Positions 7,799-55,327 of a stretch of 64,000 nucleotides of DNA are shown here, in pieces. Numbering within the stretch: the first letter of the stretch is position 1; each line of letters begins with the position of its first letter. The position numbers and the translations under genes were made by a program. The notes below the pieces were generated by a model, which was not told the DNA's origin, did not search any database, and saw nothing but the letters and a program-made list of their open reading frames with translations. This DNA is from Candidatus Magasanikiibacteriota bacterium (GTDB taxonomy: Bacteria > Patescibacteriota > Patescibacteriia > Magasanikbacterales > GWA2-37-8), in the NCBI GenBank assembly GCA_036744835.1, contig DAIOHD010000001.1, positions 335,860 to 399,859 of the forward strand, read 5' to 3'.

Positions 7799-7822
7799 AT
7801 ATTAAATGTTGAATATTGAAAA

Positions 7823-7850: not shown

Positions 7851-7886
7851 TTTCAATCTTTAAATCTTTGCAATTTTTGTAATTAA

Positions 7887-28409: not shown

Positions 28410-28525
28410 ATTTTTTAACTCAACGATAGATTCGCCGAATGAATTTTGGCGAATTTTTTAATTTATGGTAAAATAAAGATAGTCAAATATTCAATCTTTA
28501 AACCAATAGAGCCAATTTTATTTTT

Positions 28526-28876: not shown

Positions 28877-28882
28877 TTTTTT

Positions 28883-31648
28883 ATGGAATTCAAAAAAATC
28901 AACCCATTACCTTTGTTGCTTTGCGATGAATGTAAAGAAATCGGTGAAAAACAAAATAATCACCGTTGTAGCAACTGTAAAGGTTTGACCGTTGTTTATC
29001 AACCGCGAGAAAAATTATTATATTGGAAATTTCCTTTGAGTTATTATCGTTTATCGCTTTTACAAACCAGGCTTTGGTGGAATAAAGGACGTAGACTATT
29101 TCTAATTTTACTTTTATTAAATTTTTGGCTTTGGGCCGGTTTTTCTGTTTATGCAGCCGGTCTTTTTTCTTATCTTTGGCAAGGACAGAACTACATCGAT
29201 CTCTTTTTGAAAGGTCTAACGTATTATCAAAAATTATTATTTTTACTCGGAGCTTTGACGTTACTTTATCTTTGGTCTCGGATTATTCGTGAAAAACAGC
29301 ACTTTCAAATCGTTGAAAAACATAGTTATGAAAGCGACGATAAAAATAGACAGCCACGAGAGTTATCATGGGAAGAAATAAAAAAAGTTTCACATCGCCA
29401 ACGTCTAAATATTTCTCAATCTTTTACTCAAGAAGCTGTTTTGTCTATTGTTAAAGCTTGCAAAGAAGCGCAAAAGCTCGGACACAATACGGTTTCGCCT
29501 TTGCACCTATTTTATATTTTATTATCTACCAATAGAATAGCCAATGTGTTTATTCGTCTTGGTTATCCGGTAGATTTTTTACAAAAGAAAATCAGAGAAA
29601 ACCTTTTATTTAAAAATCAAAATACCAGTTTCAATTTTCCTTTGCCGGGAAAAGATTTATTTCAAATATTCTTTTTGGCTTATGAAGAAGCATACGCTTT
29701 CCACCAAGATTATGTTAGTGTGGTAGAATTACTTTCGGCGACGATTTTTTTTACTCCGCAATTACAAGAATTTTTATTTGAACTTGGTTTGGAATCGCCC
29801 AAGATAAAAAATGTGATTATGTGGGCCAGAATCAGAGAGCAACTTTATCGTCAATATGTTAAATATGCCAAAACTCATGCATTGAAACCAAAATCCGGTT
29901 TAGATAGAGCGATGACCGCTGTGGCTACACCTTATTTGAATAATTTTAGCGAGGATATGACGATGATGGCGCGTTTTAACCATTACGACCCTTGTGTGGC
30001 ACGAGATAAAGAAATAGAAGAAATATTTAGAGTAGTTGAAGGTGGCGGTGGAAATATAGTATTGGTTGGGGAAAATGGAGTTGGAAAAATGAGTTTGCTT
30101 GAAGGTTTGGCACAAAAAATGGCGGGAGACGATGTGCCAAAACGTTTGCAAGATAAACGTTTGGTACGACTGAAAATATCTTCTCTTTTATCCGGTACTA
30201 CGCCTGCCGGAGCGGTGGAGAGGGTCAATAATATTTTTTACGAAGTTGCCAAAGCGGGAAATATTATTTTATGTATTCATAATATCCATGAATTGTTTGG
30301 AGTAAGCGCCGGAGGGACTAGTAGTTTGGATGTGGCCGGAGCTTTGGCGGAAAATTTATCCAAAAATAGGTTTTTAACCGTAGCAACTACGAGTTTACAA
30401 GAATATGCCCAGAGCTTCGCCGGTACAACATTAAATAGTGTATTTACCAAAGTAGATGTTCCGGAAATGACTGAAAACCAAGCGATTGCCGTAGTAGAAG
30501 CGAAAATTGGTTATATTGAACATAAACATTCTGTGTTTTTTTCTTATGATGCGATAGAAAAAGCGGTTAAACAAAGTCATAGATTTTTACATGATATTTG
30601 TTTGCCCGGTAGTGCTTTGGAGGTTGTAGTAGAAGCTGCAGCTTTTACCAGAAATCACAAAGGTGTAAATTCTTTAGTTACGGACGAAGAGGTAGCTAAA
30701 ATTATTTCTGATAAAACCGGAGTGCCAATAACTTCTATCACTGCTCAAGAAGGTAGTCGATTGTTAAAATTGGAAGGGGAGATGCACAAAAGAGTTATCG
30801 GTCAAGATGAGGCGGTCCAAGCAGTGGCTTCAGCTTTACGACGTGCGCGTGCGGAAATGCGTTCACAAAATCGTCCTATTTCCACTTTTTTATTTTTGGG
30901 TAGCACCGGGGTGGGGAAAACTGAATTGGCTAAAACTATCGCCGATATTTATTTTGGCGGAGAAAAGAAGATGGTGCGTTTGGATATGAGTGAATATCAA
31001 GATAGTGGCAGTATAACTCGTTTGATAGGCATGCCTGGACAAAAAGGTACCGGATTATTGACTGAAAATATTCGTCGACAACCTTTTTCGCTTTTATTAC
31101 TTGATGAAATAGAAAAAGCGGATAAGGATATTTTAAATTTATTTTTACAAGTGATGGATGATGGTCGTCTAACTGATAGTATTGGGCAAACAGTGGATTT
31201 TACCAATACAATTATTATTGCCACCAGCAATGCGGGTACTTCTTATATCAACGAAAGTCGTAAAGCCGGGTTATCTATGCCGGCAATCAAAGAAAGATTA
31301 TTGCACGGGGAACTCAAACAATATTTTCGTCCTGAATTTTTGAATCGTTTTGACGGGATCGTTTTATTTGAAGATTTAAATAAAGAAGCTTTAAAGAAAA
31401 TTGCCGCTTTGATGTTGAAAAAAACAGCTTTGGAATTACAAAATAAAGGGATTGAATTTGAATATGATGAAGAAGGTTTAGAATTTTTGACTCAAGTTGG
31501 TTTTGATCCAGAGTTTGGTGCCAGACCGATGCGTCGGGCGGTACAAGAAAATGTGGAAAATAAACTCGCTGAATTATTTTTAAGCGGTTATCTCAAGCGA
31601 GGAACCAAAGTAATTTTTAGCGCTAAGGGGGAATTGTTGATAGTTTAA
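28883..31648 (+). CDS. ClpC/ClpB-like AAA+ chaperone with N-terminal Zn-ribbon and two TM helices; NBD1 Walker motifs degenerate
   Basis: CDECKEIGEKQNNHRCSNCKG (CxxC-x11-CxxC); TM segments LFLILLLLNFWLWAGFSVYAAGLF and LLFLLGALTLLYLW; two Clp_N repeats. NBD1 has GENGVGKMS (no T/S after GK) and ILCIHNIHELF (HN replaces the Walker-B DE). NBD2 is intact: FLFLGSTGVGKTELAKT and LLLLDEIEKA. Confidence 0.8.
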   Translation: MEFKKINPLPLLLCDECKEIGEKQNNHRCSNCKGLTVVYQPREKLLYWKFPLSYYRLSLLQTRLWWNKGRRLFLILLLLNFWLWAGFSVYAAGLFSYLWQGQNYIDLFLKGLTYYQKLLFLLGALTLLYLWSRIIREKQHFQIVEKHSYESDDKNRQPRELSWEEIKKVSHRQRLNISQSFTQEAVLSIVKACKEAQKLGHNTVSPLHLFYILLSTNRIANVFIRLGYPVDFLQKKIRENLLFKNQNTSFNFPLPGKDLFQIFFLAYEEAYAFHQDYVSVVELLSATIFFTPQLQEFLFELGLESPKIKNVIMWARIREQLYRQYVKYAKTHALKPKSGLDRAMTAVATPYLNNFSEDMTMMARFNHYDPCVARDKEIEEIFRVVEGGGGNIVLVGENGVGKMSLLEGLAQKMAGDDVPKRLQDKRLVRLKISSLLSGTTPAGAVERVNNIFYEVAKAGNIILCIHNIHELFGVSAGGTSSLDVAGALAENLSKNRFLTVATTSLQEYAQSFAGTTLNSVFTKVDVPEMTENQAIAVVEAKIGYIEHKHSVFFSYDAIEKAVKQSHRFLHDICLPGSALEVVVEAAAFTRNHKGVNSLVTDEEVAKIISDKTGVPITSITAQEGSRLLKLEGEMHKRVIGQDEAVQAVASALRRARAEMRSQNRPISTFLFLGSTGVGKTELAKTIADIYFGGEKKMVRLDMSEYQDSGSITRLIGMPGQKGTGLLTENIRRQPFSLLLLDEIEKADKDILNLFLQVMDDGRLTDSIGQTVDFTNTIIIATSNAGTSYINESRKAGLSMPAIKERLLHGELKQYFRPEFLNRFDGIVLFEDLNKEALKKIAALMLKKTALELQNKGIEFEYDEEGLEFLTQVGFDPEFGARPMRRAVQENVENKLAELFLSGYLKRGTKVIFSAKGELLIV

Positions 31649-31656
31649 TATAAAAT

Positions 31657-32010
31657 ATGTTACTTTTATTAAAATCTCATTTTAAAGACATTTTTGTTTT
31701 TATCGGTTTAACCATTAGTCTGGTTTTTTTTGCTTTGTCTTCTTGGTATATTTTTGGCGAAGTCAATTGGGAAGCGGAAAGATTTTTTTTACATTACAAT
31801 ATTATTTTTGGTGTTGATCGTTTGGGAGAAGTCAGAGATTTATGGCATTTCTTTTTTGGGGCGCTGGGAGTTTTATTATTTAATTATTTTTTATCTTTGT
31901 TTTTGTTTACCAAAGATAAAATTATTTCTCGCATCATAGTTATTTTTGGCGGTATCTGGCAAATATTTATGTTTATTGCTTTGTATTTGATAATTTCTCT
32001 TAACAGTTGA
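31657..32010 (+). CDS. Small membrane protein
   Basis: 117 aa, 3 TMs. Confidence 0.4.
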   Translation: MLLLLKSHFKDIFVFIGLTISLVFFALSSWYIFGEVNWEAERFFLHYNIIFGVDRLGEVRDLWHFFFGALGVLLFNYFLSLFLFTKDKIISRIIVIFGGIWQIFMFIALYLIISLNS

Positions 32011-32011
32011 T

Positions 32012-33118
32012 ATGATTGGTAGAGAATATAAAGTAAAAAAAATCGATTGGAATTACTTTATCTATGTGGCTATATTGGTTTGTTTTGGTTTGGCCATGTT
32101 GGCTTCAGCCAGTGCACCGCTTGGTTATGTAAAATTTAATGATTCTTATTTTTATCTCAAAAGACAGTTGCTGTTCGGAATTTTGCCGGGTATACTGCTT
32201 TTTTTGTTGGCCTTAAAAGTAAATTCTGAACTATTTAGACGTTTAGCTTGGGTTCTTTATTTTGCTTGTATTGTTTTATTGCTTTTATCTTTTGTTCCCG
32301 GACTATCTTTGGTAGTTAATCATGCCAAGAGTTGGGTACAAATTTTTGGTTTTAGTTTTCAACCCGCGGAGTTTATGAAATTGGGTTTGATTTTTTTACT
32401 GGCTTCCATGCTTTCCGATCCTCGGCGTGATTTGCGAGATTGGCAATACGGTTTATTGCCGGTACTGGTTTTTATTGCGATTCCGCTTGGTTTGGTTTTG
32501 TTACAACCGGATTTGGGTACAATGTTTATTTTGGGAATTATCGCTTTTTTTATTTTATTTTCTGCTAAAATTCCTTGGAGTTATCTTCTGGTTCTAGGTC
32601 TTTTGGGAATAGTAGTTTTTAGTGCCATGGTGATAGTCAAGCCTTATCGCATGGATAGGTTGAATATGTTTATGCATCCGGAACTTGATCCGCAAGGTGT
32701 TGGTTACCATGTTAACCAAGCGTTTTTAGCTGTAGGATCAGGAGGTTTTTGGGGTTTGGGCTATGGACACTCTAGACAAAAATATCAATATTTACCAGAA
32801 GTGAACGCTGATTCTGTTTATGCGGTTATTGCCGAAGAAATGGGATTTGTGGTAGCCGGAGGTTTGATTTTTTTAATTTTAGTAATAGCAATGCGGGGTT
32901 TGAAAATAGCCAGAGAGCAAAGCGATGATTTCAATCGTTATGTGGTGGTGGGAGTAACAGCTTGGTTTTTTTGTCAGTCAGTAATAAATATCGGGGCAAT
33001 GGTTGGTATAATGCCTTTGACGGGTGTACCTCTCCCTTTTGTTTCACACGGTGGTTCGGCGATGTTAGCGGCTCTTGTCGGTGTGGGTGTGGTTTTAAAT
33101 ATTAGTAGAAACGATTAA
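32012..33118 (+). CDS. ftsW: SEDS-family peptidoglycan glycosyltransferase (FtsW/RodA)
   Basis: 10-TM profile, FTEF-like loop and PLPFVSHGGSAMLAA C-terminal SEDS motif. Confidence 0.8.
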   Translation: MIGREYKVKKIDWNYFIYVAILVCFGLAMLASASAPLGYVKFNDSYFYLKRQLLFGILPGILLFLLALKVNSELFRRLAWVLYFACIVLLLLSFVPGLSLVVNHAKSWVQIFGFSFQPAEFMKLGLIFLLASMLSDPRRDLRDWQYGLLPVLVFIAIPLGLVLLQPDLGTMFILGIIAFFILFSAKIPWSYLLVLGLLGIVVFSAMVIVKPYRMDRLNMFMHPELDPQGVGYHVNQAFLAVGSGGFWGLGYGHSRQKYQYLPEVNADSVYAVIAEEMGFVVAGGLIFLILVIAMRGLKIAREQSDDFNRYVVVGVTAWFFCQSVINIGAMVGIMPLTGVPLPFVSHGGSAMLAALVGVGVVLNISRND

Positions 33119-33246
33119 TTTCAATGTTGTACATGGTGTGTGAAACATTGAAAATGTGTAAAATTTGACAAAAATCTTAAAATATTCAAATAATTAATAA
33201 ATCCGTCTTTTTTAGACGGTTATATTAAATAATTTAGATAAAATTT

Positions 33247-34302
33247 ATGAATCTACTTGTTTGTGGCGGAGCCGGTTTTATCGGGTCCAATTTTATCCGC
33301 TATATGATAAATAAATATCCGGATTATAAAATCGTCAATTATGATAAATTGACCTATGCTGGTAATTTAGAAAATCTGAAAGACGTGGAAAATAATCCAA
33401 ATTATATCTTTGTCCAAGGCGATATCGTGGATTTGGAATATTTGGATAAAGTTGTTAAAGAACATAGTATAACTCACGTGATAAATTTTGCGGCGGAAAC
33501 GCATGTGGATAGATCTATTCACGGTGGTTGTAAAGATTTTGTTTTGACCAATACTTTGGGTGTGCAGATGATTTTGGATGCGGTACGCAACAATAATTTA
33601 AAAAAATTCGTCAATGTTTCTACAGATGAAGTATATGGTTCACTGGAACTAGATGAAGAAAGACTTTTTACGGAAGATACCCCGATAGAACCAAATATGC
33701 CTTATGCAGCGGCTAAAGCCGGCGGTGATTTGATGTGTCGCGCTTATTTTGCCACACATAAAGTTCCGGTGGTAGTTACTCATTGTTCCAACAATTATGG
33801 CTCTTATCAGTTTCCGGAAAAATTGATTCCTTTCTTTATATTTAAGCTTCTCAAAGGAGAAAAAGTTCCGGTTTATGGTGATGGTTTAAATGTTCGTGAT
33901 TGGATTCATGTAGTTGATCATGCAAGGGCTTTAGATTTGCTTTTACACAAAGGCATTCCTGGTGAAGTCTATAATATTGGAGTTGACAATGAAAGAAATA
34001 ATTTAGAAATTACCAAATTGATTTTAAAATTAATGAATTTAGGCGAGGATAGGATAGAATATATTACTGACAGGCCAGGGCACGATAGACGTTATGCTAT
34101 TGATGCAAGTAAAATATTATCTTTGGGTTGGAATCCGGAATATAACAGAGAAAAATTTGAACAAGGCCTGAAAGAAACTATAGATTGGTATTTGAGTAAT
34201 CAACCGTGGGTGGAAAATCTTTGGCAAAAAAAGAAAGGTGAGATGAATAAATTTCAAAATAGTTTAGAAAGATCTCAAGATAAAATGAAATCTTCAACTT
34301 AA
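33247..34302 (+). CDS. rfbB: dTDP-glucose 4,6-dehydratase
   Basis: MNLLVCGGAGFIGSNFIRYMINKYPDYKIVNYDKLTYAGNLENL, YAAAKAGGD (YxxxK). Confidence 0.9.
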   Translation: MNLLVCGGAGFIGSNFIRYMINKYPDYKIVNYDKLTYAGNLENLKDVENNPNYIFVQGDIVDLEYLDKVVKEHSITHVINFAAETHVDRSIHGGCKDFVLTNTLGVQMILDAVRNNNLKKFVNVSTDEVYGSLELDEERLFTEDTPIEPNMPYAAAKAGGDLMCRAYFATHKVPVVVTHCSNNYGSYQFPEKLIPFFIFKLLKGEKVPVYGDGLNVRDWIHVVDHARALDLLLHKGIPGEVYNIGVDNERNNLEITKLILKLMNLGEDRIEYITDRPGHDRRYAIDASKILSLGWNPEYNREKFEQGLKETIDWYLSNQPWVENLWQKKKGEMNKFQNSLERSQDKMKSST

Positions 34303-34311
34303 TTTATCTAT

Positions 34312-34725
34312 ATGCAAAAATTTCAACAATTTTCCATCAAAAAAATAGAAGTTCCGGGTAAATTTGTTATGAGTCCGGTGGAGCTCAAAGATTACATAGA
34401 CTTTGAAGTAAAAAGAATTTATTATATCACCAAGGTGGAAGCTCCGACCGGTGCTCATTGTCATAAAGTAGAAGAAGAATTGTTTATTTTACTTTCCGGT
34501 ACTTGCACGGCGGTGGTAGACAAAGGAAACGGTTTGGAAGAAATCTCGATGAGTGGACCGACCGATGCACTCTATGTTCCAGGTTATGTCTGGCACCATT
34601 TTAAGGATTTTTCTTCCGATGCTATATTGTTAGCTATTTCTTCAACCAATTACAATCCCGATAGAAGCGATTATATAGAAAATTACGAAGAATATTTAAA
34701 AATAAGAGATGAAAAATTGAAATAA
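34312..34725 (+). CDS. Cupin sugar 3,4-ketoisomerase (FdtA/WxcM-like)
   Basis: 137 aa; AHCHKVEEELFILLSGTCTAVVD...LYVPGYVWHHF pattern of TDP-4-oxo-6-deoxyglucose 3,4-isomerases. Confidence 0.6.
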   Translation: MQKFQQFSIKKIEVPGKFVMSPVELKDYIDFEVKRIYYITKVEAPTGAHCHKVEEELFILLSGTCTAVVDKGNGLEEISMSGPTDALYVPGYVWHHFKDFSSDAILLAISSTNYNPDRSDYIENYEEYLKIRDEKLK

Positions 34726-34726
34726 T

Positions 34727-35581
34727 ATGAAAGTTTTAATTTTGGGCTACAAAGGAATGCTTGGCCAAGCTTTGATCGATGAATTTAAAAACAACGGTTA
34801 TGAAACCGTGCTTTGGGATAAAGAAGACGTAGATGTCGGTGATTTTGAACTACTGAAAGATAAAATAAAAGAAGTAAAGCCTGATATTTTGATAAATGCT
34901 ACGGCCGTAAATGCCGTGGACAAGATAGAAGAAGACCCGGCTGTTTTTGAATTGGCCTGGAAAATTAATGGTGAAGCAATAGGAAGTTTAGCGGAAATTT
35001 GCAAAGAGCAAAATATTGTTTTTGTTCACTATTCGTCAGACTATGTTTTTTATGGTGATAAAAAAGAAGGTTATGATGAAAAAAGTGAAACCAATCCCGT
35101 GGATAAATATGGAGAAACAAAAGTCAGGGGAGAAAAACTGTTGCAAGAAAAAGGGGATAAATATTATTTAATCCGTTTATCTAAATTATTCGGTAAACCG
35201 GCGATTGCAGAAGGTGCCAAGAAAAGCTTTGTAGATACTATGATTTGGTTAGCAACCGAAGGTGGAAAAACACACCTTGATTTGGTGGATGAGGAAATCA
35301 GTTCTCCGACTTATGCGCCGGATTTGGCAAGATTTACCAGGGTGTTATTGGAAGAACAAAAAACTTTTGGAATTTATCATGGAACCAATAGCGGGGTTTG
35401 TAGTTGGTATGAATTGGGAAAAGAGACATTTGAATTGAAAAATATCAAAATAGACATTGCGCCGGTTAGCGGGGATAAATTCCAGAGACCCGCAAAAAGA
35501 CCGGTTTATTCGGAACTCAAAAATACGAAAATGCCACTACAGAGAAGTTGGCAAGAGGCGCTCAAAGAGTATTTGAAATAA
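34727..35581 (+). CDS. rfbD: dTDP-4-dehydrorhamnose reductase
   Basis: MKVLILGYKGMLGQAL..., YSSDYVF..YGETK. Confidence 0.8.
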   Translation: MKVLILGYKGMLGQALIDEFKNNGYETVLWDKEDVDVGDFELLKDKIKEVKPDILINATAVNAVDKIEEDPAVFELAWKINGEAIGSLAEICKEQNIVFVHYSSDYVFYGDKKEGYDEKSETNPVDKYGETKVRGEKLLQEKGDKYYLIRLSKLFGKPAIAEGAKKSFVDTMIWLATEGGKTHLDLVDEEISSPTYAPDLARFTRVLLEEQKTFGIYHGTNSGVCSWYELGKETFELKNIKIDIAPVSGDKFQRPAKRPVYSELKNTKMPLQRSWQEALKEYLK

Positions 35582-35593
35582 ATTAGCAAAAAA

Positions 35594-35617
35594 CAGCCCA
35601 AACAGGGCTGTTTTTTG
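35594..35617 (+). terminator. Intrinsic terminator after rfbD
   Basis: cagccc-aaaca-gggctg-tttttt. Confidence 0.8.
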
Positions 35618-35625
35618 TTTTAATC

Positions 35626-35654
35626 TTGACAAAATAGTCAAAATGTGCTAATCT
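35626..35654 (+). promoter_or_regulatory. Promoter TTGACA-17-TAATCT (near-copy of the 17378 and 52404 promoters)
   Basis: ttgacaaaatagtcaaaatgtgctaatct. Confidence 0.6.
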
Positions 35655-35706
35655 AAGTCCGTGTTCTTTGTTAGTTTCATAAACTTTTTTTGGAAGAGGT
35701 AAAAAC

Positions 35707-36165
35707 ATGACCAAGTACAAGCAGTGGGATCTGTTGACCGATGACGAGAAGTACAATCTGTGTAATCTCGGCCCCGACGGCAAGAAACAGTTCTACGAGG
35801 TCATCATGGGCCAGTACGGGCAGCCGCTCATCGTGGCCGAACCCGACAGGGCCTTCCCGTGTCCGGCGACGCTCGAGTATGTCAACGCCAAGGGCGAAAC
35901 GGCCGTTCCGACCGAGAAGATCGCCGGAATAATCTGTTCCGACGGTAAGCGTTTCTCGCTGACCAACGCCGCCAACAAAGGGATCAAGATCGAGACCAAG
36001 GAAAACGGTTCCATCCAGATCGACGACGAGATCTGGTGGATCAAGACCTTGTTCCAGAAAGACAAGAACCGCATCATCAACTACGATGCGTACCTTTCGC
36101 CGGACAAGCCGGAGAAGGTCAAAATCCTTGAACTGGCCGACCTCACGGCTCATCTCTGTTCCTAA
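35707..36165 (+). CDS. High-GC 152-aa hypothetical protein (compositional island inside the rhamnose locus)
   Basis: GGAAGAGG SD 7 nt upstream. The ORF is visibly ~50-55% GC against ~30% background; all six frames are open across it. Own promoter and strong terminator. No recognisable domain. Confidence 0.6.
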   Translation: MTKYKQWDLLTDDEKYNLCNLGPDGKKQFYEVIMGQYGQPLIVAEPDRAFPCPATLEYVNAKGETAVPTEKIAGIICSDGKRFSLTNAANKGIKIETKENGSIQIDDEIWWIKTLFQKDKNRIINYDAYLSPDKPEKVKILELADLTAHLCS

Positions 36166-36185
36166 ACCTAAAGTTCTGAATTTCC

Positions 36186-36214
36186 CGGCCCCGCTTTATT
36201 GCGGGGCTTTTTTA
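36186..36214 (+). terminator. Intrinsic terminator
   Basis: gccccgc-tttatt-gcggggc-tttttt. Confidence 0.8.
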
Positions 36215-36284
36215 ATCCGTGAATGAATTTACAAAAAACATTTTTGGTGATAAAATCAAAGTAATCTTTTTAATCAAAAATTTT

Positions 36285-37343
36285 ATGAAAATTCTAGATA
36301 ATTTAGCCAAAATCAAGCAATTGGATAGTAAAAGCATGCTTCACAGTATTGAATTGCTGGATCAGCAAATAAAAGAGGTAGAAAAAGCGGTTAAAACTAT
36401 CAAAATCCCGAAAAATTATAAAAAGTTTGAAAATGTGGTTGTATGCGGGATGGGTGGTTCGGCACTAGGCGCGCATCTGATAAAAAGTTTATATAAAAAC
36501 GATTTGAAAGTTTCACTTAATATTGTTAATGGCTATCATCTGCCTGGATTTGCGGATAAAAATACTTTGGTGATACTTAGTAGTTATTCTGGAAATACGG
36601 AAGAAGTTTTATCTTGTGCCAGCGAGGCTAAAAAGAAAAAATGCAAAATCGCTATAATTGCCTCGGGCGGTAAATTGGCGATTTTGAGTAAAAAAGAAAA
36701 ATATCCGTCTTTGATTTTTACGACAAATAATAATCCGTGCGGATCACCTCGAATGGGACTAGGTTATTCAATAGTTGGACAGATTTATTTATTTTCTAAA
36801 TTGGGTTTGTTGAAAGTTAAAACCGACGAATTGAAAAAAATTCCGGATTTAGCAGGGGAGTTAAATAATAAATTTGGTGTTAAAATAAAAAGTGTTTTGA
36901 AAGATATTGCCGAAAAAACAAAAGGCAAATCCGTGTGGTTTGTCGCAGCTGAGCATCTGGCAGGTTCCGCTCATATTGCCGCCAATCAGATGAATGAAAA
37001 TGCCAAACGTTTTGCCGGATATTTTCTCATCCCGGAACTCAATCATCATCTGATGGAAGGAATGATAAATCCCAAAAGCAATAAAGATAATTTATTGTTT
37101 GTATTTTTGGAATCGGATTTATATAGTGATAATTTCAAAAAACGTTTTGTCTTGACCAAAGAAATTTTGAAAATGAATAAAATAAATTTTGTTTCTATCA
37201 AAGCAAAAGAAAAATCCGCTTTGGATCAAACCATGGAAATATTAGTTATCAGTTCTTATTTGAGTTTTTATTCTGCGATGGTGGAGGGGATTGACCCAAC
37301 GGCTATTCCTTTCGTGGACTTTTTTAAGAAAAAATTGGCTTAA
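36285..37343 (+). CDS. Bifunctional phosphoglucose/phosphomannose isomerase (SIS domain)
   Basis: VVCGMGGSALGAHL...ILSSYSGNTEEVLSCASEAKKKKCKIAIIASGG tandem SIS motifs. Start moved to ATG 36285 (MKILDNLAKI). Confidence 0.7.
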   Translation: MKILDNLAKIKQLDSKSMLHSIELLDQQIKEVEKAVKTIKIPKNYKKFENVVVCGMGGSALGAHLIKSLYKNDLKVSLNIVNGYHLPGFADKNTLVILSSYSGNTEEVLSCASEAKKKKCKIAIIASGGKLAILSKKEKYPSLIFTTNNNPCGSPRMGLGYSIVGQIYLFSKLGLLKVKTDELKKIPDLAGELNNKFGVKIKSVLKDIAEKTKGKSVWFVAAEHLAGSAHIAANQMNENAKRFAGYFLIPELNHHLMEGMINPKSNKDNLLFVFLESDLYSDNFKKRFVLTKEILKMNKINFVSIKAKEKSALDQTMEILVISSYLSFYSAMVEGIDPTAIPFVDFFKKKLA

Positions 37344-37388
37344 TTATTATTAAAACTTACTTGCTTATTAGCTTACTTGCTTAATTAT

Positions 37389-38267
37389 ATGAAATTATCG
37401 GTCATTACTGTTACTTGGAAAAATGAGTCATCCATTGGAAAACAGATAGAAAGCGTACAAAAAGGCGCTATTGGTTTGGAATTAGAGCAGATTATTGTGG
37501 ATAATGGTTCAACGGACAGTACAATAGAAATTATCAAAAAGTATCCGCAAGTTAAACTGATTCAAAATAAAGAAAATTTAGGTTTTGGGGCGGCCAATAA
37601 TCAAGGTTATAAAATAGCCACCGGTGATTATATTTTATTTTTAAATCCTGATAATGAAGTAGAACCAAATTCTTTGTTGAAACTTTGTAAAATGATGGAA
37701 CAACGTTCAAAAATTGGTTTATTGAGTTGTAAATTGACTACTCAAGAAGGACTTTTTAATGAAGGTGCTAAACCCAGGCGCTATCCTGGTTTGGTGGATC
37801 AATTGGCTTTGTTACTTAAAATTCCACACCTGTTTCCAAAAATTTTAGATAAATATTTAATGAAAGATTTTAATCCGGAAATAGAACAGGAAGTGGAAAC
37901 AGTGCGCGGTGCTTTTATGTTGTTATGCAAAAGTACTTTGGATAAACTAGGCTGGGGTTTTGATCCGCGGTATTTTATTTGGTTTGAAGATGTAGATTTA
38001 TGTAAAGAGGTACAAAAATTGGGGTTAAAAGTATTTTATACCCCAGAAGTTTCTTGTGTTGATTTGGTTGGACAAAGTTTTAAACAACAAGATAATTTAT
38101 GGAAGCAAAAGATTTTTACCACTAGCATGGTACAATATTTTCAAAAGTGGGAGCCATGGTATATATGGATTTGGATTGTTATTTTCCGGCCAGTGGCTAT
38201 TTTTATGGTGTGGTTAAAAGAAAAAATGGGAAAAAATAATTCAGATAAAATTAGACCTAGTTTATAA
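37389..38267 (+). CDS. Glycosyltransferase family 2
   Basis: MKLSVITVTWKNE...VDNGSTDST...LFLNPDNEVE...WFEDVDLC. Confidence 0.8.
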   Translation: MKLSVITVTWKNESSIGKQIESVQKGAIGLELEQIIVDNGSTDSTIEIIKKYPQVKLIQNKENLGFGAANNQGYKIATGDYILFLNPDNEVEPNSLLKLCKMMEQRSKIGLLSCKLTTQEGLFNEGAKPRRYPGLVDQLALLLKIPHLFPKILDKYLMKDFNPEIEQEVETVRGAFMLLCKSTLDKLGWGFDPRYFIWFEDVDLCKEVQKLGLKVFYTPEVSCVDLVGQSFKQQDNLWKQKIFTTSMVQYFQKWEPWYIWIWIVIFRPVAIFMVWLKEKMGKNNSDKIRPSL

Positions 38268-38268
38268 T

Positions 38269-39312
38269 ATGTCAAAACTTTCTGTAAATTTAGTTGTCTG
38301 GAACGGGGCAAAATATTTGCCTTATCTTTTTGATTCGCTACGCAAACAAATTTATCAAGATTGGGAATTGCAAATTTTGGACAATAATTCCACCGACAAT
38401 ACTGTGGAAATTATTGAAAAAGAAATTATAAATTTTCCAGTACCGGTAAAGTTTTTTAAAGAAAAAGAAAATCATGGTTTTGCCAAGGGACACAATATAT
38501 TATTTAAAGAAAATGAGAGCGAATATTTTTTGCTTTTGAATCAAGACATGTATTTAGAAAATACAGTTTTAGAAAAAATGGTAGATTTTTTGGATAAAAA
38601 TTCTGCCGTGGCCGCAGTTTCTCCGCGTTTGATGCGTTGGGATTTTGCCAAAATAGGGGAGGGGTTAAATAATACCTTTTCTTTTTCAGTGGATGCCTTG
38701 GGTTTAAAAGTTTTTCGCAATCGTCGGGTGATAGAACAATATACTGGAGAAAATTGGGAAGAGATAAAAAGTAAGTTTGGAGTAAATAATATTCTGGAAG
38801 TTTTCGGCGTATCTGGAGCCTTTCCGATGTACCGTCGTGAGGCTATAAAAAATGTTTTGTTTTCCGATGGTCAGATGCTTGATGAAAGTTATCATTCATA
38901 TAAAGAAGATGTTGATTTAGCTTGGCGTTTACGATTATCAGGAAACTCTTCCTTTATAATGCTAAATACTGTCGCGTATCATGACAGAGCCGGAGCTGGT
39001 CCGAAAGAAAAAAGTGACTTGGCGGCAATGCAAAATAAGAAAAAGCACAGTCCCTGGGTGAAATATTACAGTTATCGCAATCATCTGATGACTTTGTATA
39101 AAAATGAAAATAGTAAAAATTTTTGGCTTGATTTTATTTTTATTGCATGGTATGAATTAAAAAAGCTGGTTTATTTTATTGTCTTTGACCCAAAGGTTTT
39201 GAAAGGATGGAAAGATATTTGGTTGATGAAAAAAGATTTAAAAAATAAAAGACAAGAAATTAAAAAAATAATAAAAATTTCTATGGGGGATTTAAGAAAA
39301 TGGTGGAAATAA
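38269..39312 (+). CDS. Glycosyltransferase family 2
   Basis: LSVNLVVWNGAKYL...LDNNSTDNT...LLLNQDMYLE. Confidence 0.75.
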   Translation: MSKLSVNLVVWNGAKYLPYLFDSLRKQIYQDWELQILDNNSTDNTVEIIEKEIINFPVPVKFFKEKENHGFAKGHNILFKENESEYFLLLNQDMYLENTVLEKMVDFLDKNSAVAAVSPRLMRWDFAKIGEGLNNTFSFSVDALGLKVFRNRRVIEQYTGENWEEIKSKFGVNNILEVFGVSGAFPMYRREAIKNVLFSDGQMLDESYHSYKEDVDLAWRLRLSGNSSFIMLNTVAYHDRAGAGPKEKSDLAAMQNKKKHSPWVKYYSYRNHLMTLYKNENSKNFWLDFIFIAWYELKKLVYFIVFDPKVLKGWKDIWLMKKDLKNKRQEIKKIIKISMGDLRKWWK

Positions 39313-39318
39313 TTTTGT

Positions 39319-40158
39319 ATGAAAGATATAACAATAGTATTTGTAAATTATTTAATGAAAGACGACATAGTAAATGCCGTCGATTCTTTGATTAAAGATA
39401 TAACCGACTGTCCATATTCCGTTCAAATCACGGTTACGGATAATTCGCAAAATAAAGACAATATCAAAGAAGCTTTGGCGGAGAAATTTCTCCAAGTAAA
39501 ATATATAGACTGTGGCGGGAATATCGGTTTTGGCGCTGGTAATCAAGTAGGTTTTATAGATACCCCGGCTCGCTATTATTTTGCTATCAATCGCGACACA
39601 ATAATTCCGGAAAATAGCAAAACAATCGAAAGATTGATAAAATTTATGGACGAACATCCAAAAATCGGTTGCATAGGTCCGAAATTATTAAATTTGGACG
39701 GATCTTTACAAGATACTTGTTATCGATTTGATTTGCGAGCTTTATTAATAAAACCGTTCAAACAAATAAATTTTGATAAAAAATACGCTTGGGTTAAAAA
39801 ATATGCCGATTATTTATTAATGAAAGATTTTGATCACAACGAAACCCGTCCTGTAGATTGGGTGCTTGGGGCGGCAATGATTGTACGAGCGGAAGTAGTC
39901 AAAGATATCGGTTGGTTTGATCCGCGTTATTTTATGTATTTGGAAGATTGTGATTGGTGTCGTAGGATGTGGGAAAAAGGATGGCCGGTTTATTATGTTC
40001 ATGATATTACTATTTTGCATAGACACGAAAGACAATCGGCAAAAGTACCAGGTATTTTTAGAGCTTTAATAAAAAATAAAACCGCCCGGATCCATTTGGC
40101 CAGTTGGTTTAAATATCTCTGGAAATGGCGTGGTAAATATAAATATTATGCTGAATAA
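39319..40158 (+). CDS. Glycosyltransferase family 2
   Basis: ITIVFVNYLM...AINRDTIIP...YLEDCDWCRR. Confidence 0.75.
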   Translation: MKDITIVFVNYLMKDDIVNAVDSLIKDITDCPYSVQITVTDNSQNKDNIKEALAEKFLQVKYIDCGGNIGFGAGNQVGFIDTPARYYFAINRDTIIPENSKTIERLIKFMDEHPKIGCIGPKLLNLDGSLQDTCYRFDLRALLIKPFKQINFDKKYAWVKKYADYLLMKDFDHNETRPVDWVLGAAMIVRAEVVKDIGWFDPRYFMYLEDCDWCRRMWEKGWPVYYVHDITILHRHERQSAKVPGIFRALIKNKTARIHLASWFKYLWKWRGKYKYYAE

Positions 40159-41248
40159 TTTTCCTAAAGTTGCTATTGTTTATCTATCTTTTCACAGTGA
40201 GCCATATATTGACGATGTGGTTTCGGCTTTGAAAAAAGTATCCTATCCCAAGGAAAAATTGGAATTGGTTATTGTTGATAACCCGCACCCCAAATATGGT
40301 AATTCCGTCAGGTTTTTAAACGAAACAGTTATGCCGTTATCTAATACGGATTTGCCTCATGTGACGATTTTGCCACAAACGGAAAATTTGGGATTTGCCG
40401 GTGGAAATAATGTCGGGATAAAATGGGCAATAGACAATGGTTTTGATTATGTTTATTTTCATAATAATGACGGTTTTGTGACTACCAATTTTTTGGAATC
40501 GTTGGTGGAGGCTATGGAAGGTGATAAAAAAATAGGTGCTGCCCAATCGCTTATCATGTTGCACCCAGAAACGGAGATGATAAATACTTCTGGCAATGTG
40601 TTTCAATATTTGGGGATAGGTTTTTGTAATGATTTTCGTAAAAAAATAAACGATTTCACTCTACCCAAGATAAAAGAAATAAATTATGCTAGCGGAGCGG
40701 CGATGTTGATGAGAGTGAATTTATTAAAACAATTTGGAGTTTGGGATAAAGATTTCTTTTTATATCACGAAGATGTCGAATATTCTTTTCGTTTGAAAAT
40801 TGCCGGTTTTAAAATTGTAGTTGTTCCGGATTCGATTTTTTATCATAAATATTCTTTTTCTCGCAATAAAGAAAAATTTTATTACATTGAACGCAATCGT
40901 TACGGTGTGATGTTGATGTTTTTCAAGTGGCCGACACTTTTGTTGATGTTACCGATGGGAATTATACTAGATATCGGATTATTACTATTTTCTTTGAAAA
41001 ATGGCTGGATAAAAGAAAAATTAAACGCCTATAAGTATTGGCTATCTTTGAAAAATTGGCAGTTATGGCTTAAAAAAAGAAATTACATACAAAGTATTCG
41101 TCAAATTAAAGATAAAGAATTAATAAAAGATTTAGCGGGCAAAGTTGAATTTGAGGATAAAAGCGTCAATAATCCTGTTTTGAAATATTTAGGCAATCCT
41201 TTGATGAATATTTATTGGCAGGTAATAAAGAGACTAATTTTTTGGTAA
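40148..41248 (+). CDS. Glycosyltransferase family 2
   Basis: VAIVYLSFHSEPYI...VIVDNPHP...YFHNNDGFV...YHEDVEYSFR. Confidence 0.75.
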   Translation: MLNNFPKVAIVYLSFHSEPYIDDVVSALKKVSYPKEKLELVIVDNPHPKYGNSVRFLNETVMPLSNTDLPHVTILPQTENLGFAGGNNVGIKWAIDNGFDYVYFHNNDGFVTTNFLESLVEAMEGDKKIGAAQSLIMLHPETEMINTSGNVFQYLGIGFCNDFRKKINDFTLPKIKEINYASGAAMLMRVNLLKQFGVWDKDFFLYHEDVEYSFRLKIAGFKIVVVPDSIFYHKYSFSRNKEKFYYIERNRYGVMLMFFKWPTLLLMLPMGIILDIGLLLFSLKNGWIKEKLNAYKYWLSLKNWQLWLKKRNYIQSIRQIKDKELIKDLAGKVEFEDKSVNNPVLKYLGNPLMNIYWQVIKRLIFW

Positions 41249-41250
41249 TT

Positions 41251-42345
41251 ATGTCTATCAAAAAAATCAGAAAAGCTATTTTGACCGGCGGGGGAAAAGC
41301 GACTAGATTGCGTCCGGTAACTTCCACTATTAACAAACATCTTATCCCTTTGGCCAATAAGCCAATGATTTTTCATGCTATTGAGAAAGTAGTTGGAGCC
41401 GGGGTTGAAGAGATTTTTATCAATCTTAATCCTGGTGAAACCGAACTCCCAAAATATATTGGTGATGGCGGTCATTGGGGAATAAAAATTACTTATTTTG
41501 AACAAGAGGGTGGTCCGCAAGGTGTGGCCCATGTGGTCAAACAAGCACAAAAGTTTATTGGTAACGATCCTTTTATATTCTTTTTATCTGATAATGTAGT
41601 ACTTGGAGATATCAAGCCGATGGTAGCGGAATTTATAGAAAATAAATATGATTGTATGTTGGCGTTATCGGAAGTTCCTAACGCCAAATCTTTTGGCGTA
41701 CCAGTTTTTGATGAAAATAAAAAATTGATTGATGTTTGGGAAAAACCGGAAAATCCACCCAATAATTTTGCGGTTACCGGAATCTATATTTACGGTCCGG
41801 AAGTATTTTTTAAAGCTTTTGATAATATCGAAAGAAGTGCTCGTGGTGAATATGAAATCAGCAGTATTCACTCTCATTTTTTGAAAAATAATTATAAAGT
41901 CGGCTATAAAGAAATAACCGGTTGGTGGAAAGATACTGGTCAAGCCCACGATCTTATTTTGGCTAATAAATTATTACTTGATGAGTTGAAAACAGAAGAC
42001 TTTGTTATTCAAGGAAAAGTGGAAGAAGGAGCAAAATTTACGGATAGAGTTCATATTGGTGCTGGAACAGTTGTGAGAAGTGACGTAAAAATAAGTGGTC
42101 CGGTTACTATAGGTGAAAATTGTATTTTAGAAAACTGCGTGATAGGGCCTTATGCCACACTTGGTTCCGGGTGTGTGATAAAAAACGCAGAAATAAATAA
42201 TTCTATTATTTTAAAAAATTGTACTATTGATTGTCCGCTTAAATTTACCGAAAGTATTGTTGGAGAGAAAGCGGAAATAATAAAGAAAAGAACCGATGAG
42301 TGTCGTAGGGTGATTATTGGTGAACAGACGGTGATTGAGGTATAA
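41251..42345 (+). CDS. rfbA: Sugar-phosphate nucleotidyltransferase (RmlA-like, long form with C-terminal left-handed beta-helix)
   Basis: AILTGGGKATRLRPVTSTINKHLIPLANKPMIFHAIE (G-x-G-x-R-L motif); C-terminal hexapeptide repeats. Confidence 0.7.
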   Translation: MSIKKIRKAILTGGGKATRLRPVTSTINKHLIPLANKPMIFHAIEKVVGAGVEEIFINLNPGETELPKYIGDGGHWGIKITYFEQEGGPQGVAHVVKQAQKFIGNDPFIFFLSDNVVLGDIKPMVAEFIENKYDCMLALSEVPNAKSFGVPVFDENKKLIDVWEKPENPPNNFAVTGIYIYGPEVFFKAFDNIERSARGEYEISSIHSHFLKNNYKVGYKEITGWWKDTGQAHDLILANKLLLDELKTEDFVIQGKVEEGAKFTDRVHIGAGTVVRSDVKISGPVTIGENCILENCVIGPYATLGSGCVIKNAEINNSIILKNCTIDCPLKFTESIVGEKAEIIKKRTDECRRVIIGEQTVIEV

Positions 42346-42380
42346 AATAAATATTGGATATTAAATATTAAATATTAAAA

Positions 42381-42414
42381 ATTCTCTCCGCCCAGGGCGG
42401 AGAGAATTTTTTGT
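42381..42414. terminator. Intrinsic terminator (bidirectional-capable) between convergent rfbA-like and recR
   Basis: attctctccgcc-caggg-cggagagaat-tttttg. Confidence 0.8.
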
Positions 42415-52403: not shown

Positions 52404-52432
52404 TTGACAAAATCGTTAAAATGTGCTACAAT
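52404..52432 (+). promoter_or_regulatory. Promoter TTGACA-17-TGcTACAAT
   Basis: ttgacaaaatcgttaaaatgtgctacaat. Confidence 0.65.
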
Positions 52433-55316: not shown

Positions 55317-55327
55317 GCATTTTGTTG

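What the first reader, a model, noticed from the sequence alone, without database searches (positions are those of the whole stretch)
35594..36214. Strikingly high-GC 152-aa gene with native-looking promoter, SD and terminators, inserted inside the rhamnose/glycosyltransferase locus
Between rfbD and the PGI/PMI gene lies a self-contained unit: terminator, TTGACA-17-TAATCT promoter, GGAAGAGG SD, a 459-nt ORF that is visibly 50-55% GC (all six frames open across it, with only spurious antisense ORFs), then a strong terminator. The surrounding genes are ~30% GC. The promoter is nearly identical to two others in the window (17378 and 52404), so the regulatory DNA looks native while the coding sequence looks foreign or is under unusual constraint. 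This implies very recent HGT with promoter capture, or a gene kept GC-rich for a reason (e.g. RNA structure or codon-driven regulation). The protein has no recognisable domain.
Basis: seen in the sequence. Interest (0 to 1): 0.58.

Follow-up and report, generated by a model that had tools for sequence, protein, structure and literature searches.

The report
Conserved gene with persistently GC-rich codons
A small gene of unknown function in an AT-rich, tiny-genome bacterium uses G- or C-ending codons almost exclusively. Its relatives have kept this reversed codon usage over long evolutionary time, so it is under unusual selection and is not a recent foreign import.

Summary
ORF 35707-36165 (+, 152 aa) has GC 0.549 and GC1/2/3 of 0.50/0.34/0.81. 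Every other ORF of at least 120 aa in the 34%-GC window has GC3 of 0.18-0.40, apart from two shadow ORFs. The gene has its own promoter, Shine-Dalgarno site and terminator.

Recent horizontal transfer is not supported. The gene belongs to an unannotated protein family that carries source names only from CPR/Patescibacteria. In Magasanikbacteria-type genomes it keeps one position (FtsW-RmlB-RmlD-gene-PGI-glycosyltransferases). Its amino-acid divergence tracks its neighbours (0.89, 0.78 and 0.60 identity).

About 21-23 distinct orthologues form most of one clade and have GC3 of 0.58-0.99, against background GC3 of 0.24-0.46. One reaches 0.993. Synonymous sites keep changing but stay G or C.

Ribosomal protein L27, EF-P and two window genes with the same promoter have normal GC3. 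An overlapping gene, a specific RNA structure, a known RNA family, and phage or plasmid carriage all find no support.

The shift is equal for codon pairs read by one tRNA and for pairs that may be read by different tRNAs. That points to selection on the nucleic acid itself. My best guess is a stable, decay-resistant mRNA for a strongly expressed protein. The protein's function is unknown: a confident beta-rich model has no structural match.

The parts
35585..35619 (+). Intrinsic terminator hairpin closing the rmlD gene. Its T-tract continues into a T/A-rich stretch just upstream of the -35 element.
   Evidence: Terminator scan. The stretch TTTTTTGTTTTAA-CTTGACA is conserved in orthologous loci, including ones that lack this hairpin.
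35626..35654 (+). Promoter: -35 TTGACA (35626-35631), 17-nt spacer, TG (35646-35647), -10 TAATCT (35649-35654).
   Evidence: The same 25-nt core occurs at 17378 and 52404. It is almost invariant among orthologues at 70-89% protein identity. That it fires strongly is inferred, not measured.
35661..35706 (+). Short AT-rich 5' UTR with Shine-Dalgarno GGAAGAGG at 35692-35699. The transcription start near 35661 is inferred.
   Evidence: Sequence. The UTR blocks GTGTTC.TT, AACTTTT and AGAGGTA are conserved. GC is 0.26-0.32 here, against 0.46-0.70 inside the CDS.
35707..36165 (+). Protein-coding gene of 152 aa with GC3 0.81. It belongs to an unannotated, apparently CPR-restricted family. The product is predicted to be mostly beta with a short flexible C-terminal helix.
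35677..36153 (-). Antisense 158-aa ORF. It is a by-product of the codon usage, not a gene.
   Evidence: It is open only because the sense codons TTA, CTA and TCA are absent. The frame carries 1-4 stops in 5 of 23 GC3-rich orthologues. Its GC1/2/3 of 0.77/0.35/0.48 is the mirror image of the sense frame.
36187..36214 (+). Strong intrinsic terminator (8-bp stem, 7 G-C pairs, T-run) that ends the monocistronic transcript.
36228..36256 (+). Separate promoter (TTTACA-17-TAAAAT, preceded by TG) for the downstream PGI/glycosyltransferase genes. It shows that the GC-rich gene is its own transcription unit.

Best explanation
This is a vertically inherited, chromosomal, monocistronic gene for a small, mostly-beta protein. 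No signal-peptide or transmembrane prediction was run, so where the protein sits in the cell is untested. It belongs to an unannotated family that carries source names only from CPR/Patescibacteria.

In the Magasanikbacteria-type branch of that family, the coding sequence is held at very high G+C at synonymous sites by gene-specific selection. This works against the AT-biased composition of the rest of the genome.

The pressure acts on strong (G/C) versus weak (A/T) bases as such, not on particular tRNAs. The most likely target is therefore the transcript. It combines an AT-rich, unstructured ribosome-binding region, a GC-rich and strongly folding coding body, and a strong terminator hairpin. 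That design would give a long-lived mRNA that resists A/U-directed decay, and so a high or condition-proof protein yield from a conserved near-consensus promoter.

**Shown:**
- the composition;
- its restriction to synonymous sites;
- vertical co-inheritance with the flanking genes;
- persistence across a clade, with turnover of synonymous sites;
- absence of the trait from other genes.

**Inferred:** that the cause is selection, that it acts on the mRNA, and that expression is high.

**Unknown:** what the protein does.
For: **Synonymous-only GC excess.** GC1/2/3 is 0.50/0.34/0.81, against GC3 of 0.18-0.40 elsewhere.

**All amino acids switch codons.**
- At four-fold sites the family has A .06, C .49, G .33, T .13. 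The background has A .24, C .20, G .20, T .36.
- The C fraction of two-fold pyrimidine-ending codons is 0.71 against 0.21.
- The G fraction of Gln/Lys/Glu codons is 0.81 against 0.20.
- The log-odds shift is about 2.2 and about 2.9 in these two classes (computed by hand from the fractions). The first class is read by a single tRNA per amino acid. A similar shift in both argues for base-level rather than isoacceptor-level selection.

**Vertical inheritance.** Synteny is conserved, and amino-acid identity tracks the flanks.

**Persistence.** There are 23 distinct GC3-rich sequences, 21 after dropping near-identical strain copies. Their GC3 is 0.58-0.99, against background medians of 0.24-0.46. 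Nearly all fall in one clade.

**Turnover within the G/C class.** pS is 0.25 at short distance, against 0.41-0.67 in the flanks. It reaches 0.54-0.66 at longer distance, yet GC3 stays high. Per-column codon variety confirms this.

**Strength of the bias.** A mutation-selection balance estimate gives S of about 2.4 for the window gene and 5.4 for L019.

**Not a general high-expression signature.** L27 has GC3 0.36 and EF-P 0.33 in related genomes. The two window genes with the same promoter have 0.39 and 0.31.

**Transcript design.**
- The promoter, UTR and Shine-Dalgarno site are conserved.
- GC3 is lower in the first 20 codons (0.74 and 0.69, against about 0.82 further in).
- The CDS folds at -156 kcal/mol, against -81 to -116 for equal-length control CDSs.
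- Flanking UTR-like sequence is modestly GC-enriched across the clade: 0.41 and 0.42 against 0.36, p = 0.02 and 0.009.
Against: - No expression, half-life or proteomic data were available.
- Codon-permutation z-scores for folding (mean -1.65) do not differ significantly from control genes (mean -1.14, p = 0.08). Nothing beyond composition supports structure-based selection.
- UTR GC enrichment is absent in the window's own subclade, and in some loci it is partly explained by N-terminal coding extensions.
- A sister clade in Peregrinibacteria does without the trait (GC3 0.13-0.31), so the protein itself does not require it.
- DNA-level explanations were not excluded. Examples are suppression of spurious AT-rich promoters, duplex stability and exclusion of nucleoid proteins.
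- Only two high-expression control genes could be examined.
Confidence: 0.45

Rival explanations
1. Codon- or tRNA-channel regulation. The gene is written in codons that are rare in this genome. Its translation would then depend on, or be buffered by, a different set of tRNAs or tRNA modifications than bulk translation. Examples are tRNAs with C at anticodon position 34, or unmodified G at that position. This would gate or protect its synthesis during starvation, tRNA cleavage or dormancy.
For: - Every amino acid uses the genome-rare codon.
- G-ending Gln/Lys/Glu codons make up 0.81 of their class, against 0.20 in the background.
- At least one C34 tRNA, tRNA-Gln(CTG), exists in a related genome.
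- In some lineages the gene sits among tRNA clusters.
- From my own knowledge, precedents exist: bldA/TTA in Streptomyces, selective isoacceptor charging under starvation (Elf et al. 2003), and codon-biased translation of the DosR regulon (Chionh et al. 2016).
Against: - C- versus T-ending two-fold codons share one tRNA, yet they shift as much as the A/G-ending ones.
- A-ending codons are read by Watson-Crick pairing with U34, yet they are the most depleted.
- SS-type codons also prefer G or C, so the 'intermediate pairing energy' rule is not followed.
- GC enrichment reaches non-coding flanks in several lineages.
- No full tRNA complement could be obtained.
Confidence: 0.2
2. Recent horizontal transfer from a GC-rich donor, with the foreign ORF placed behind a native promoter.
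For: The codon usage resembles that of a high-GC bacterium: GCC, GGC, CCG, CTG/CTC, AAG and GAG. The gene also occurs in different genomic contexts in other CPR lineages.
Against: - Synteny is conserved and divergence equals that of the flanks.
- GC3 is 0.70-0.99 in orthologues that are only 53-61% identical, long after amelioration should have erased it.
- GC1 and GC2 are native-like.
- The boundaries coincide with the start and stop codons.
- All named family members are CPR.
- There are no phage, plasmid or viral hits.
Confidence: 0.03
3. GC-biased gene conversion or a local mutational bias. The gene would be a recombination or repair hotspot, which drives GC up without selection.
For: - The rml-glycosyltransferase block is much more similar between the window and L014 (80-96% aa, mostly 86-96%) than the adjacent ClpB-FtsW block (73-76%). 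This suggests recombination in the neighbourhood.
- pS of the gene is lower than that of the flanks at short distance.
Against: - The flanking genes inside the same recombining block have normal GC3.
- The effect stops at the CDS boundaries in the window's subclade.
- It shows strict three-base periodicity.
- From my own knowledge, reported gBGC effects in bacteria amount to a few percent of GC3, not 50 points.
- The trait follows the gene into unrelated genomic contexts.
Confidence: 0.07
4. A second, overlapping gene. GC3 would be kept high to hold an antisense or alternative frame open, or the true gene would lie on the minus strand.
For: The codon-aligned antisense frame is stop-free in 18 of 23 GC3-rich members. 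It gives a 158-aa ORF in the window.
Against: - That frame needs only TTA, CTA and TCA to be avoided. This does not explain AAG/GAG/CAG or NNC preferences.
- The frame is interrupted in L041, L022, L018, L042 and L053.
- The other frames carry 3-10 stops in the window gene.
- The promoter, Shine-Dalgarno site and terminator are all on the plus strand.
- The plus-strand product gives a confident fold, with pLDDT 90.9.
Confidence: 0.02
5. Assembly chimera or contamination, or a GC-rich structured RNA gene miscalled as an ORF.
For: GC-rich islands in AT-rich genomes are usually RNA genes. A second GC-rich island without a clean ORF exists in a related locus (L017, about 14900-15600).
Against: - The same gene with the same flanks occurs in contigs from many independent samples and assemblers.
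- Codon periodicity is clear and the protein is conserved across about 137 clusters at 50% identity.
- There is no Rfam match.
- Folding does not exceed that of codon-permuted controls by more than in ordinary genes.
Confidence: 0.01

Closest known systems
Horizontally acquired genes or islets recognised by atypical GC and codon usage
   Same: A sharp local GC and codon-usage anomaly relative to the host genome.
   Different: - The anomaly is confined to synonymous sites and to the CDS.
- Orthologues are syntenic and co-diverge with their neighbours.
- The anomaly persists, up to GC3 0.99, over divergence at which amelioration should be complete.
- There are no mobility genes and no phage or plasmid relatives.
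Translationally selected codon bias of highly expressed genes (ribosomal proteins, EF-Tu; CAI-type bias)
   Same: Gene-specific synonymous bias together with a near-consensus promoter, a good Shine-Dalgarno site and a monocistronic layout.
   Different: - The direction is opposite to the genome's usage.
- The bias is not shared by L27 or EF-P in related genomes.
- A-ending Lys/Glu/Gln codons are avoided.
- Codons read by the same tRNA shift as strongly as the others.
Codon-gated or stress-robust translation (Streptomyces bldA/TTA; selective charging of rare-codon isoacceptors; codon-biased DosR regulon) - from my own knowledge
   Same: Use of genome-rare codons in a particular gene, maintained by selection.
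   Different: Here the whole gene and all amino acids are involved, not one codon or one box. The pattern follows base strength (G/C against A/T) rather than tRNA identity. No tRNA data are available.
mRNA stabilisation by CDS structure or GC content, and long-lived mRNAs of very abundant proteins such as S-layer genes with stabilising 5' UTRs - from my own knowledge
   Same: - A strong promoter.
- Its own terminator.
- An unstructured initiation region followed by a strongly folding body.
- Long GC-rich UTRs in several lineages.
   Different: This is a small protein, and no signal-peptide prediction was run on it. Stability has not been measured. No specific conserved structure was detected beyond composition.
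GC-rich structural RNA genes (rRNA, tRNA, RNase P RNA) in AT-rich genomes
   Same: A GC island maintained by selection at the nucleic-acid level against AT mutational pressure.
   Different: Three-base periodicity, protein-level conservation and a confident protein fold show that this is a coding gene. There is no Rfam family.

Membership tests
Recent horizontal acquisition (genomic islet) | Atypical base composition relative to the genome | tested here: met
   GC 0.549 against 0.342, z = 5.1.
Recent horizontal acquisition (genomic islet) | Patchy presence, or divergence discordant with the flanking genes | tested here: not met
   The gene is present at the same site in all syntenic relatives. 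Amino-acid identities of 0.89, 0.78 and 0.60 match the flanks.
Recent horizontal acquisition (genomic islet) | Donor-like composition at all codon positions and in the adjacent non-coding DNA | tested here: not met
   GC1 and GC2 are native-like. The 5' UTR has GC 0.26-0.32. The boundaries fall at the start and stop codons.
Recent horizontal acquisition (genomic islet) | Link to mobile elements or to donors outside the lineage | tested here: not met
   No phage, plasmid or IMG/VR hits. Named homologues are all CPR.
Translationally optimised highly expressed gene | Codon preference shared with ribosomal-protein and elongation-factor genes of the same lineage | tested here: not met
   L27 has GC3 0.36 and EF-P 0.33 in related genomes, against 0.82-0.85 for the family gene there. 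Only two control genes were available.
Translationally optimised highly expressed gene | Strong expression signals | tested here: met
   A conserved TTGACA-17-TG-TAATCT promoter, a Shine-Dalgarno site and a terminator. The expression level itself was not measured.
Codon/tRNA-gated translation | The bias tracks tRNA isoacceptor identity | tested here: not met
   NNC/NNT pairs, which are read by a single tRNA, shift as much as NNG/NNA pairs.
Codon/tRNA-gated translation | A matching tRNA or tRNA-modification repertoire in the genome | not testable with these tools
   Only fragments of the genomes were available. One tRNA-Gln(CTG) was seen.
Any Pfam / NCBIfam / PHROG / PADLOC family, or a solved structure | A significant profile or fold match | tested here: not met
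   - Pfam: best hit L15e, E = 0.17.
- NCBIfam: L15e, E = 0.026, 14 bits against a cutoff of 178.
- PHROG: E = 0.079.
- PADLOC: nothing.
- PDB sequence profile: E of 0.007 or worse.
- Foldseek against PDB: best E = 0.14. Against BFVD: best E = 0.029.
Structured non-coding RNA | An Rfam match, or folding beyond what composition explains | tested here: not met
   No Rfam hit. The codon-permutation z-score is not different from that of control genes.
Overlapping (antisense) protein gene | The alternative frame is kept open in all orthologues beyond what the codon usage explains | tested here: not met
   The frame is interrupted in 5 of 23 members. Its openness follows from the codon usage alone.

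The most novel reading that the evidence does not exclude
The GC-rich, A-avoiding recoding makes this transcript 'orthogonal' to the AT-rich bulk transcriptome. Its mRNA would escape an A/U-directed endoribonuclease, or a global decay or translation shutdown such as toxin activation, dormancy or host-dependent starvation. This one CPR-specific protein could then keep being made when everything else stops. That would be a natural, evolutionarily maintained counterpart of engineered 'cleavage-site-free' mRNAs.
Probability: 0.15. Interest if true: 0.85.

Novelty: new variant of a known kind. Interest (0 to 1): 0.62.

Why it matters
Single-gene compositional anomalies are routinely read as horizontal transfer. 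Here the anomaly is ancient, vertically inherited and actively maintained. One orthologue has GC3 of 0.993 in a 39%-GC locus.

This implies synonymous-site selection of unusual strength, with S of about 2.4-5.4, in organisms thought to have weak codon selection. It gives a clean natural system for asking what selects for G+C in coding DNA or mRNA independently of tRNA usage. That question has been open since the reports of a universal AT mutation bias and of selection favouring GC.

It also flags an unannotated, apparently CPR-restricted protein family of about 137 clusters at 50% identity. The family has a confidently predicted fold with no structural match, and strongly conserved expression signals. 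It is a good candidate for a major, uncharacterised cellular component of these episymbiotic bacteria.

Tried and rejected
- **Domain, family and structure searches all came back negative.** These were Pfam, PHROG, NCBIfam, PADLOC, PDB sequence profiles, Foldseek against PDB and Foldseek against BFVD. The recurring weak L15e hit is a short K.F.EVI-type motif far below threshold, and I rejected it.
- **Rfam on the window and on orthologue UTRs gave nothing above threshold**.
- **Specific mRNA structure.** The dinucleotide-shuffle z-score is -2.9 for the whole transcript. Codon-permutation z-scores (mean -1.65) do not differ from 24 control genes (mean -1.14, p = 0.08). I rejected this as a distinct signal. 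One low-GC3 member, L021, had z = -5.4 and remains unexplained.
- **Overlapping-gene test:** rejected.
- **Sequence-level synonymous constraint.** There is only a slight excess codon homozygosity (0.055) and a few locally conserved codon runs at residues 84-88 and 119-122.
- **Polarising recent synonymous polymorphisms among near-identical strains:** too few sites and not cleanly polarisable.
- **Neighbour clustering for a conserved partner gene** found only the rml/PGI/glycosyltransferase/FtsW synteny of one subclade, and nothing family-wide.
- **Literature searches** for a described case found nothing relevant.
- **C-terminal tail.** The conserved tail ...V.VLEL.DL(D/N)LF-COOH resembles acidic-hydrophobic docking peptides such as the SSB tip, clamp-binding motifs and the FtsZ C-terminal peptide. 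That comparison rests on my memory only. The window's own subclade ends in ...LCS instead. I treat it as a lead, not a finding.
Full report
**1. The observation**

The region 35594-36214 contains a self-contained transcription unit.
- The hairpin at 35585-35619 terminates the upstream rmlD gene.
- The promoter has TTGACA at 35626-35631, a 17-nt spacer, TG at 35646-35647 and TAATCT at 35649-35654.
- GGAAGAGG lies at 35692-35699, 7 nt before the ATG.
- The ORF is 35707-36165, 152 aa.
- A strong terminator lies at 36187-36208 and is followed by a T-run.
- The next gene, PGI, has its own promoter at 36228-36256.

The ORF has GC 0.549 in a window of GC 0.342. No other 459-nt window exceeds 0.458 (z = 5.1).

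The excess is almost purely synonymous: GC1 0.50, GC2 0.34, GC3 0.81. Every other ORF of at least 120 aa has GC3 of 0.18-0.40, apart from two opposite-strand shadow ORFs.

The promoter core TTGACA-N11-ATGTGCTA occurs exactly three times in the window, at 17378, 35626 and 52404.

Three details needed correction:
- Only the sense frame and the codon-aligned antisense frame are stop-free; the other four are not.
- The flanks are 33-37% GC.
- The -10 hexamer is a 3-of-6 match that relies on the upstream TG.

**2. It is a real protein gene of an unannotated, apparently CPR-restricted family**

The product has no Pfam, PHROG, NCBIfam or PADLOC match.

It does have 24 clear full-length homologues of about 150 aa. 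A profile search finds 137 clusters at 50% identity among 1.8 billion representatives. All source names given are Magasanikbacteria, Peregrinibacteria or Gracilibacteria.

An AlphaFold model built on the family alignment is confident, with pLDDT 90.9 and pTM 0.83. It is mostly beta with a short, low-confidence C-terminal helix. Foldseek finds nothing in the PDB (best E = 0.14) or in BFVD (best E = 0.029). PDB sequence profiles also find nothing.

The family shares a C-terminal tail...V.VLEL.DL(D/N)LF, which often forms the exact C-terminus. Its meaning is unknown.

**3. It is not a recent import**

In Magasanikbacteria-type genomes the gene sits in a conserved neighbourhood: FtsW, RmlB, (FdtA), RmlD, this gene, PGI, four glycosyltransferases, then an NTP-transferase. 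About 12 distinct loci from independent samples and assemblers show this order.

Its amino-acid identity to the window copy tracks that of its neighbours:

| Comparison | This gene | Flanking genes |
|---|---|---|
| window vs L014 | 0.89 | about 0.91 |
| window vs L015 | 0.78 | about 0.83 |
| window vs L017 | 0.60 | about 0.57 |

The promoter, UTR and Shine-Dalgarno site are conserved with the gene. At 70-89% protein identity they are almost invariant, far better conserved than the synonymous sites of the flanks. The promoter was therefore not 'captured'.

No relative occurs on phages, plasmids or IMG/VR contigs.

**4. The GC3 excess is an old, maintained trait**

Across 39 distinct family genes with flanking DNA, 23 have GC3 of 0.58-0.99. 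The other ORFs of their loci have median GC3 of 0.24-0.46. The extreme cases are L019, at 0.993 in a 39%-GC locus, and L031, at 0.96.

On a protein tree these members make up nearly all of one large clade.
- Inside that clade, one sub-lineage from very AT-rich genomes (L021/L046) has fallen to 0.30, still about 1.7 times its background.
- L031 and L053 lie outside the clade.
- The Peregrinibacteria-type clades have ordinary or low GC3 (0.13-0.31).

Synonymous sites are not frozen. pS is 0.25 against L014, where the flanks show 0.41-0.67. It rises to 0.54-0.66 at greater distances. Conserved amino-acid columns carry several alternative G/C-ending codons. The sites therefore turn over but stay G or C.

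A simple mutation-selection balance gives S of about 2.4 for the window gene and 5.4 for L019.

**5. What the bias looks like**

Every amino acid switches to its genome-rare codon. Pooled over 21 GC3-rich genes and 138 background ORFs:

| Site class | Family genes | Background ORFs |
|---|---|---|
| Four-fold sites (A / C / G / T) | .06 / .49 / .33 / .13 | .24 / .20 / .20 / .36 |
| C fraction of two-fold pyrimidine-ending codons | 0.71 | 0.21 |
| G fraction of Gln/Lys/Glu codons | 0.81 | 0.20 |

The log-odds shift is similar in the last two classes, about 2.2 and about 2.9 (computed by hand from the fractions). The first class is read by one tRNA per amino acid. The second may be read by different tRNAs.

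Three further points:
- A-ending codons are the most depleted, although they pair in Watson-Crick fashion with U34.
- SS-type codons also prefer G or C.
- First-position synonymous sites shift as well (Leu TTR to CTN, Arg AGR to CGN).

The pressure therefore acts on strong versus weak bases, not on tRNA identity or on wobble geometry.

**6. It is gene-specific**
- Ribosomal protein L27 (GC3 0.36) and EF-P (0.33) in related genomes are ordinary.
- The two window genes driven by the near-identical promoter are tiny hydrophobic ORFs at 17445 and 52478. Their GC3 is 0.39 and 0.31.
- In eleven related loci scanned, the family gene was the only clearly coding GC3-rich ORF. Three other GC-rich stretches are noted separately below.

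**7. Rivals tested**
- **Overlapping gene.** The antisense frame is open simply because TTA, CTA and TCA are absent. It is interrupted in 5 of 23 members. Avoiding three codons does not explain the rest of the bias.
- **Specific RNA structure or an RNA gene.** There is no Rfam match. The CDS folds much more stably than equal-length neighbours (-156 against -81 to -116 kcal/mol). Its excess over codon-permuted versions (mean z = -1.65) is no greater than in 24 control genes (mean z = -1.14, p = 0.08). Composition is the trait, not a particular fold.
- **gBGC or local mutation bias.** Neighbours within the same apparently recombining block have normal GC3. The effect is three-periodic and stops at the CDS ends in this subclade.
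- **Artefact.** Recurrence in unrelated assemblies excludes it.

**8. Most likely mechanism**

This part is inferred. The evidence above points to gene-specific selection at the nucleic-acid level.

The transcript has three parts:
- an AT-rich, conserved ribosome-binding leader;
- slightly lower GC3 in the first 20 codons (0.74 and 0.69, against about 0.82), followed by a GC-rich body;
- a strong terminator.

In several deeper lineages the 5' and 3' flanks are also GC-enriched. The overall figures are 0.41 and 0.42 against 0.36 for other intergenic DNA (p = 0.02 and 0.009). This is heterogeneous and absent in the window's own subclade.

This is the design expected for a long-lived mRNA that resists A/U-directed decay and still initiates efficiently. 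The conserved near-consensus promoter suggests high transcription.

I put about 0.85 on 'selection-maintained, vertically inherited GC3'. I put about 0.4-0.45 on the transcript-stability reading specifically. Codon-channel regulation (about 0.2) and DNA-level effects remain open.

The protein's own function is unknown. The stable linkage to the rhamnose/PGI/glycosyltransferase/FtsW neighbourhood in one subclade is a weak hint at envelope biogenesis. The gene is transcribed separately, and it sits elsewhere in other lineages.

**9. Comparison with what is known, and novelty**

The case resembles three known things: an HGT islet, high-expression codon bias, and codon-gated translation. It fails a defining test of each (see the membership table).

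I found no description of a gene whose codon usage is inverted relative to its genome and held that way across a deep clade (and my own knowledge). I classify it as a new and extreme variant of gene-specific synonymous selection, in a new protein family.

Noticed in passing
window 55326-55421 (-): Full-length Rfam match to the DUF3800-V RNA motif (RF02964), 73.2 bits against a gathering score of 37.4. It is the only Rfam hit in the window.
   Followed up: no
window 17378-17402 and 52404-52428 (+): Two promoters almost identical to the one studied (TTGACAAAA..AAAATGTGCTA.AAT, both with perfect or near-perfect -10 hexamers). Each drives a tiny hydrophobic ORF with a strong Shine-Dalgarno site: 17445-17624 (59 aa) and 52478-52606 (42 aa). 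Their GC3 is normal, 0.39 and 0.31. A weaker copy at 48337 precedes the Thy1 gene.
   Followed up: partly
L002 7652-8014; L004 4244-4606: In some strains a 120-aa bAvd / 23S_rRNA_IVP-type four-helix-bundle gene is inserted between PGI and the first glycosyltransferase. It is absent from the window and from L001, L003 and L005.
   Followed up: no
window 28000-42400 compared with L014 and L015: Divergence is discontinuous. ClpB to FtsW are 73-76% identical in protein between the window and L014. The adjacent rml/PGI/glycosyltransferase genes are 80-96% identical, mostly 86-96%. This suggests recombinational exchange of the glycan-synthesis block between lineages.
   Followed up: no
L017 about 14900-15600: A second GC-rich island (0.58-0.64 in a 42%-GC locus) lies just after the NTP-transferase gene. 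Its only long ORF lacks coding-type periodicity (GC1/2/3 of .63/.53/.67). It has no Pfam and no Rfam match, so it may be an unknown RNA or a gene in another frame.
   Followed up: partly
L034 11075-11953 (-); L018 9935-10633 (+): Other GC-rich ORFs occur in AT-rich CPR loci. One is a 292-aa ORF at GC 0.71 with no Pfam match. The other is a 232-aa ORF at GC 0.54 with Dicty_CTDC Cys-rich repeats.
   Followed up: partly
L017 about 7820-7985 and L023 about 6180-6340; L019 about 7850-7985 and L012 about 5860-6000: In deeper lineages the family gene has a 130-170-nt GC-rich 5' leader behind a TTGACA...TGTGCTAT promoter. The leaders align in pairs (L017 with L023, L019 with L012) and have no Rfam match. 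They may be lineage-specific regulatory or stabilising leaders.
   Followed up: partly
L019 8510-8610 (+): A sub-threshold match to the trpB ncRNA motif (34.8 bits against a gathering score of 59, E = 0.007). It lies between the family gene and a downstream 240-aa ORF whose translation looks like a membrane protein; that ORF was not annotated.
   Followed up: no
L012 5407-5724 and 6767-7221; L020 6306-6565; L044 2306-2565: In one subclade the family gene lies next to tRNA clusters: Ala-TGC, Phe-GAA and Pro-TGG upstream, and Gly-GCC, Met and Gly-TCC downstream.
   Followed up: no
L021 372-851: This low-GC3 family member (0.29, in a locus at 28% GC) folds far better than its codon-permuted versions, with z = -5.4. 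This is the strongest arrangement-based structure signal seen, and it is unexplained.
   Followed up: no
family proteins P0025, P0027, P0029, P0033, P0046 and others: Some relatives carry an unannotated N-terminal extension of about 110 aa, or two copies of the domain (P0025, 426 aa). Several end in ...AA-COOH, for example ...KEAA...NNAA and ...QKAA. From memory this resembles ssrA-like C-terminal degrons; it was not tested.
   Followed up: no
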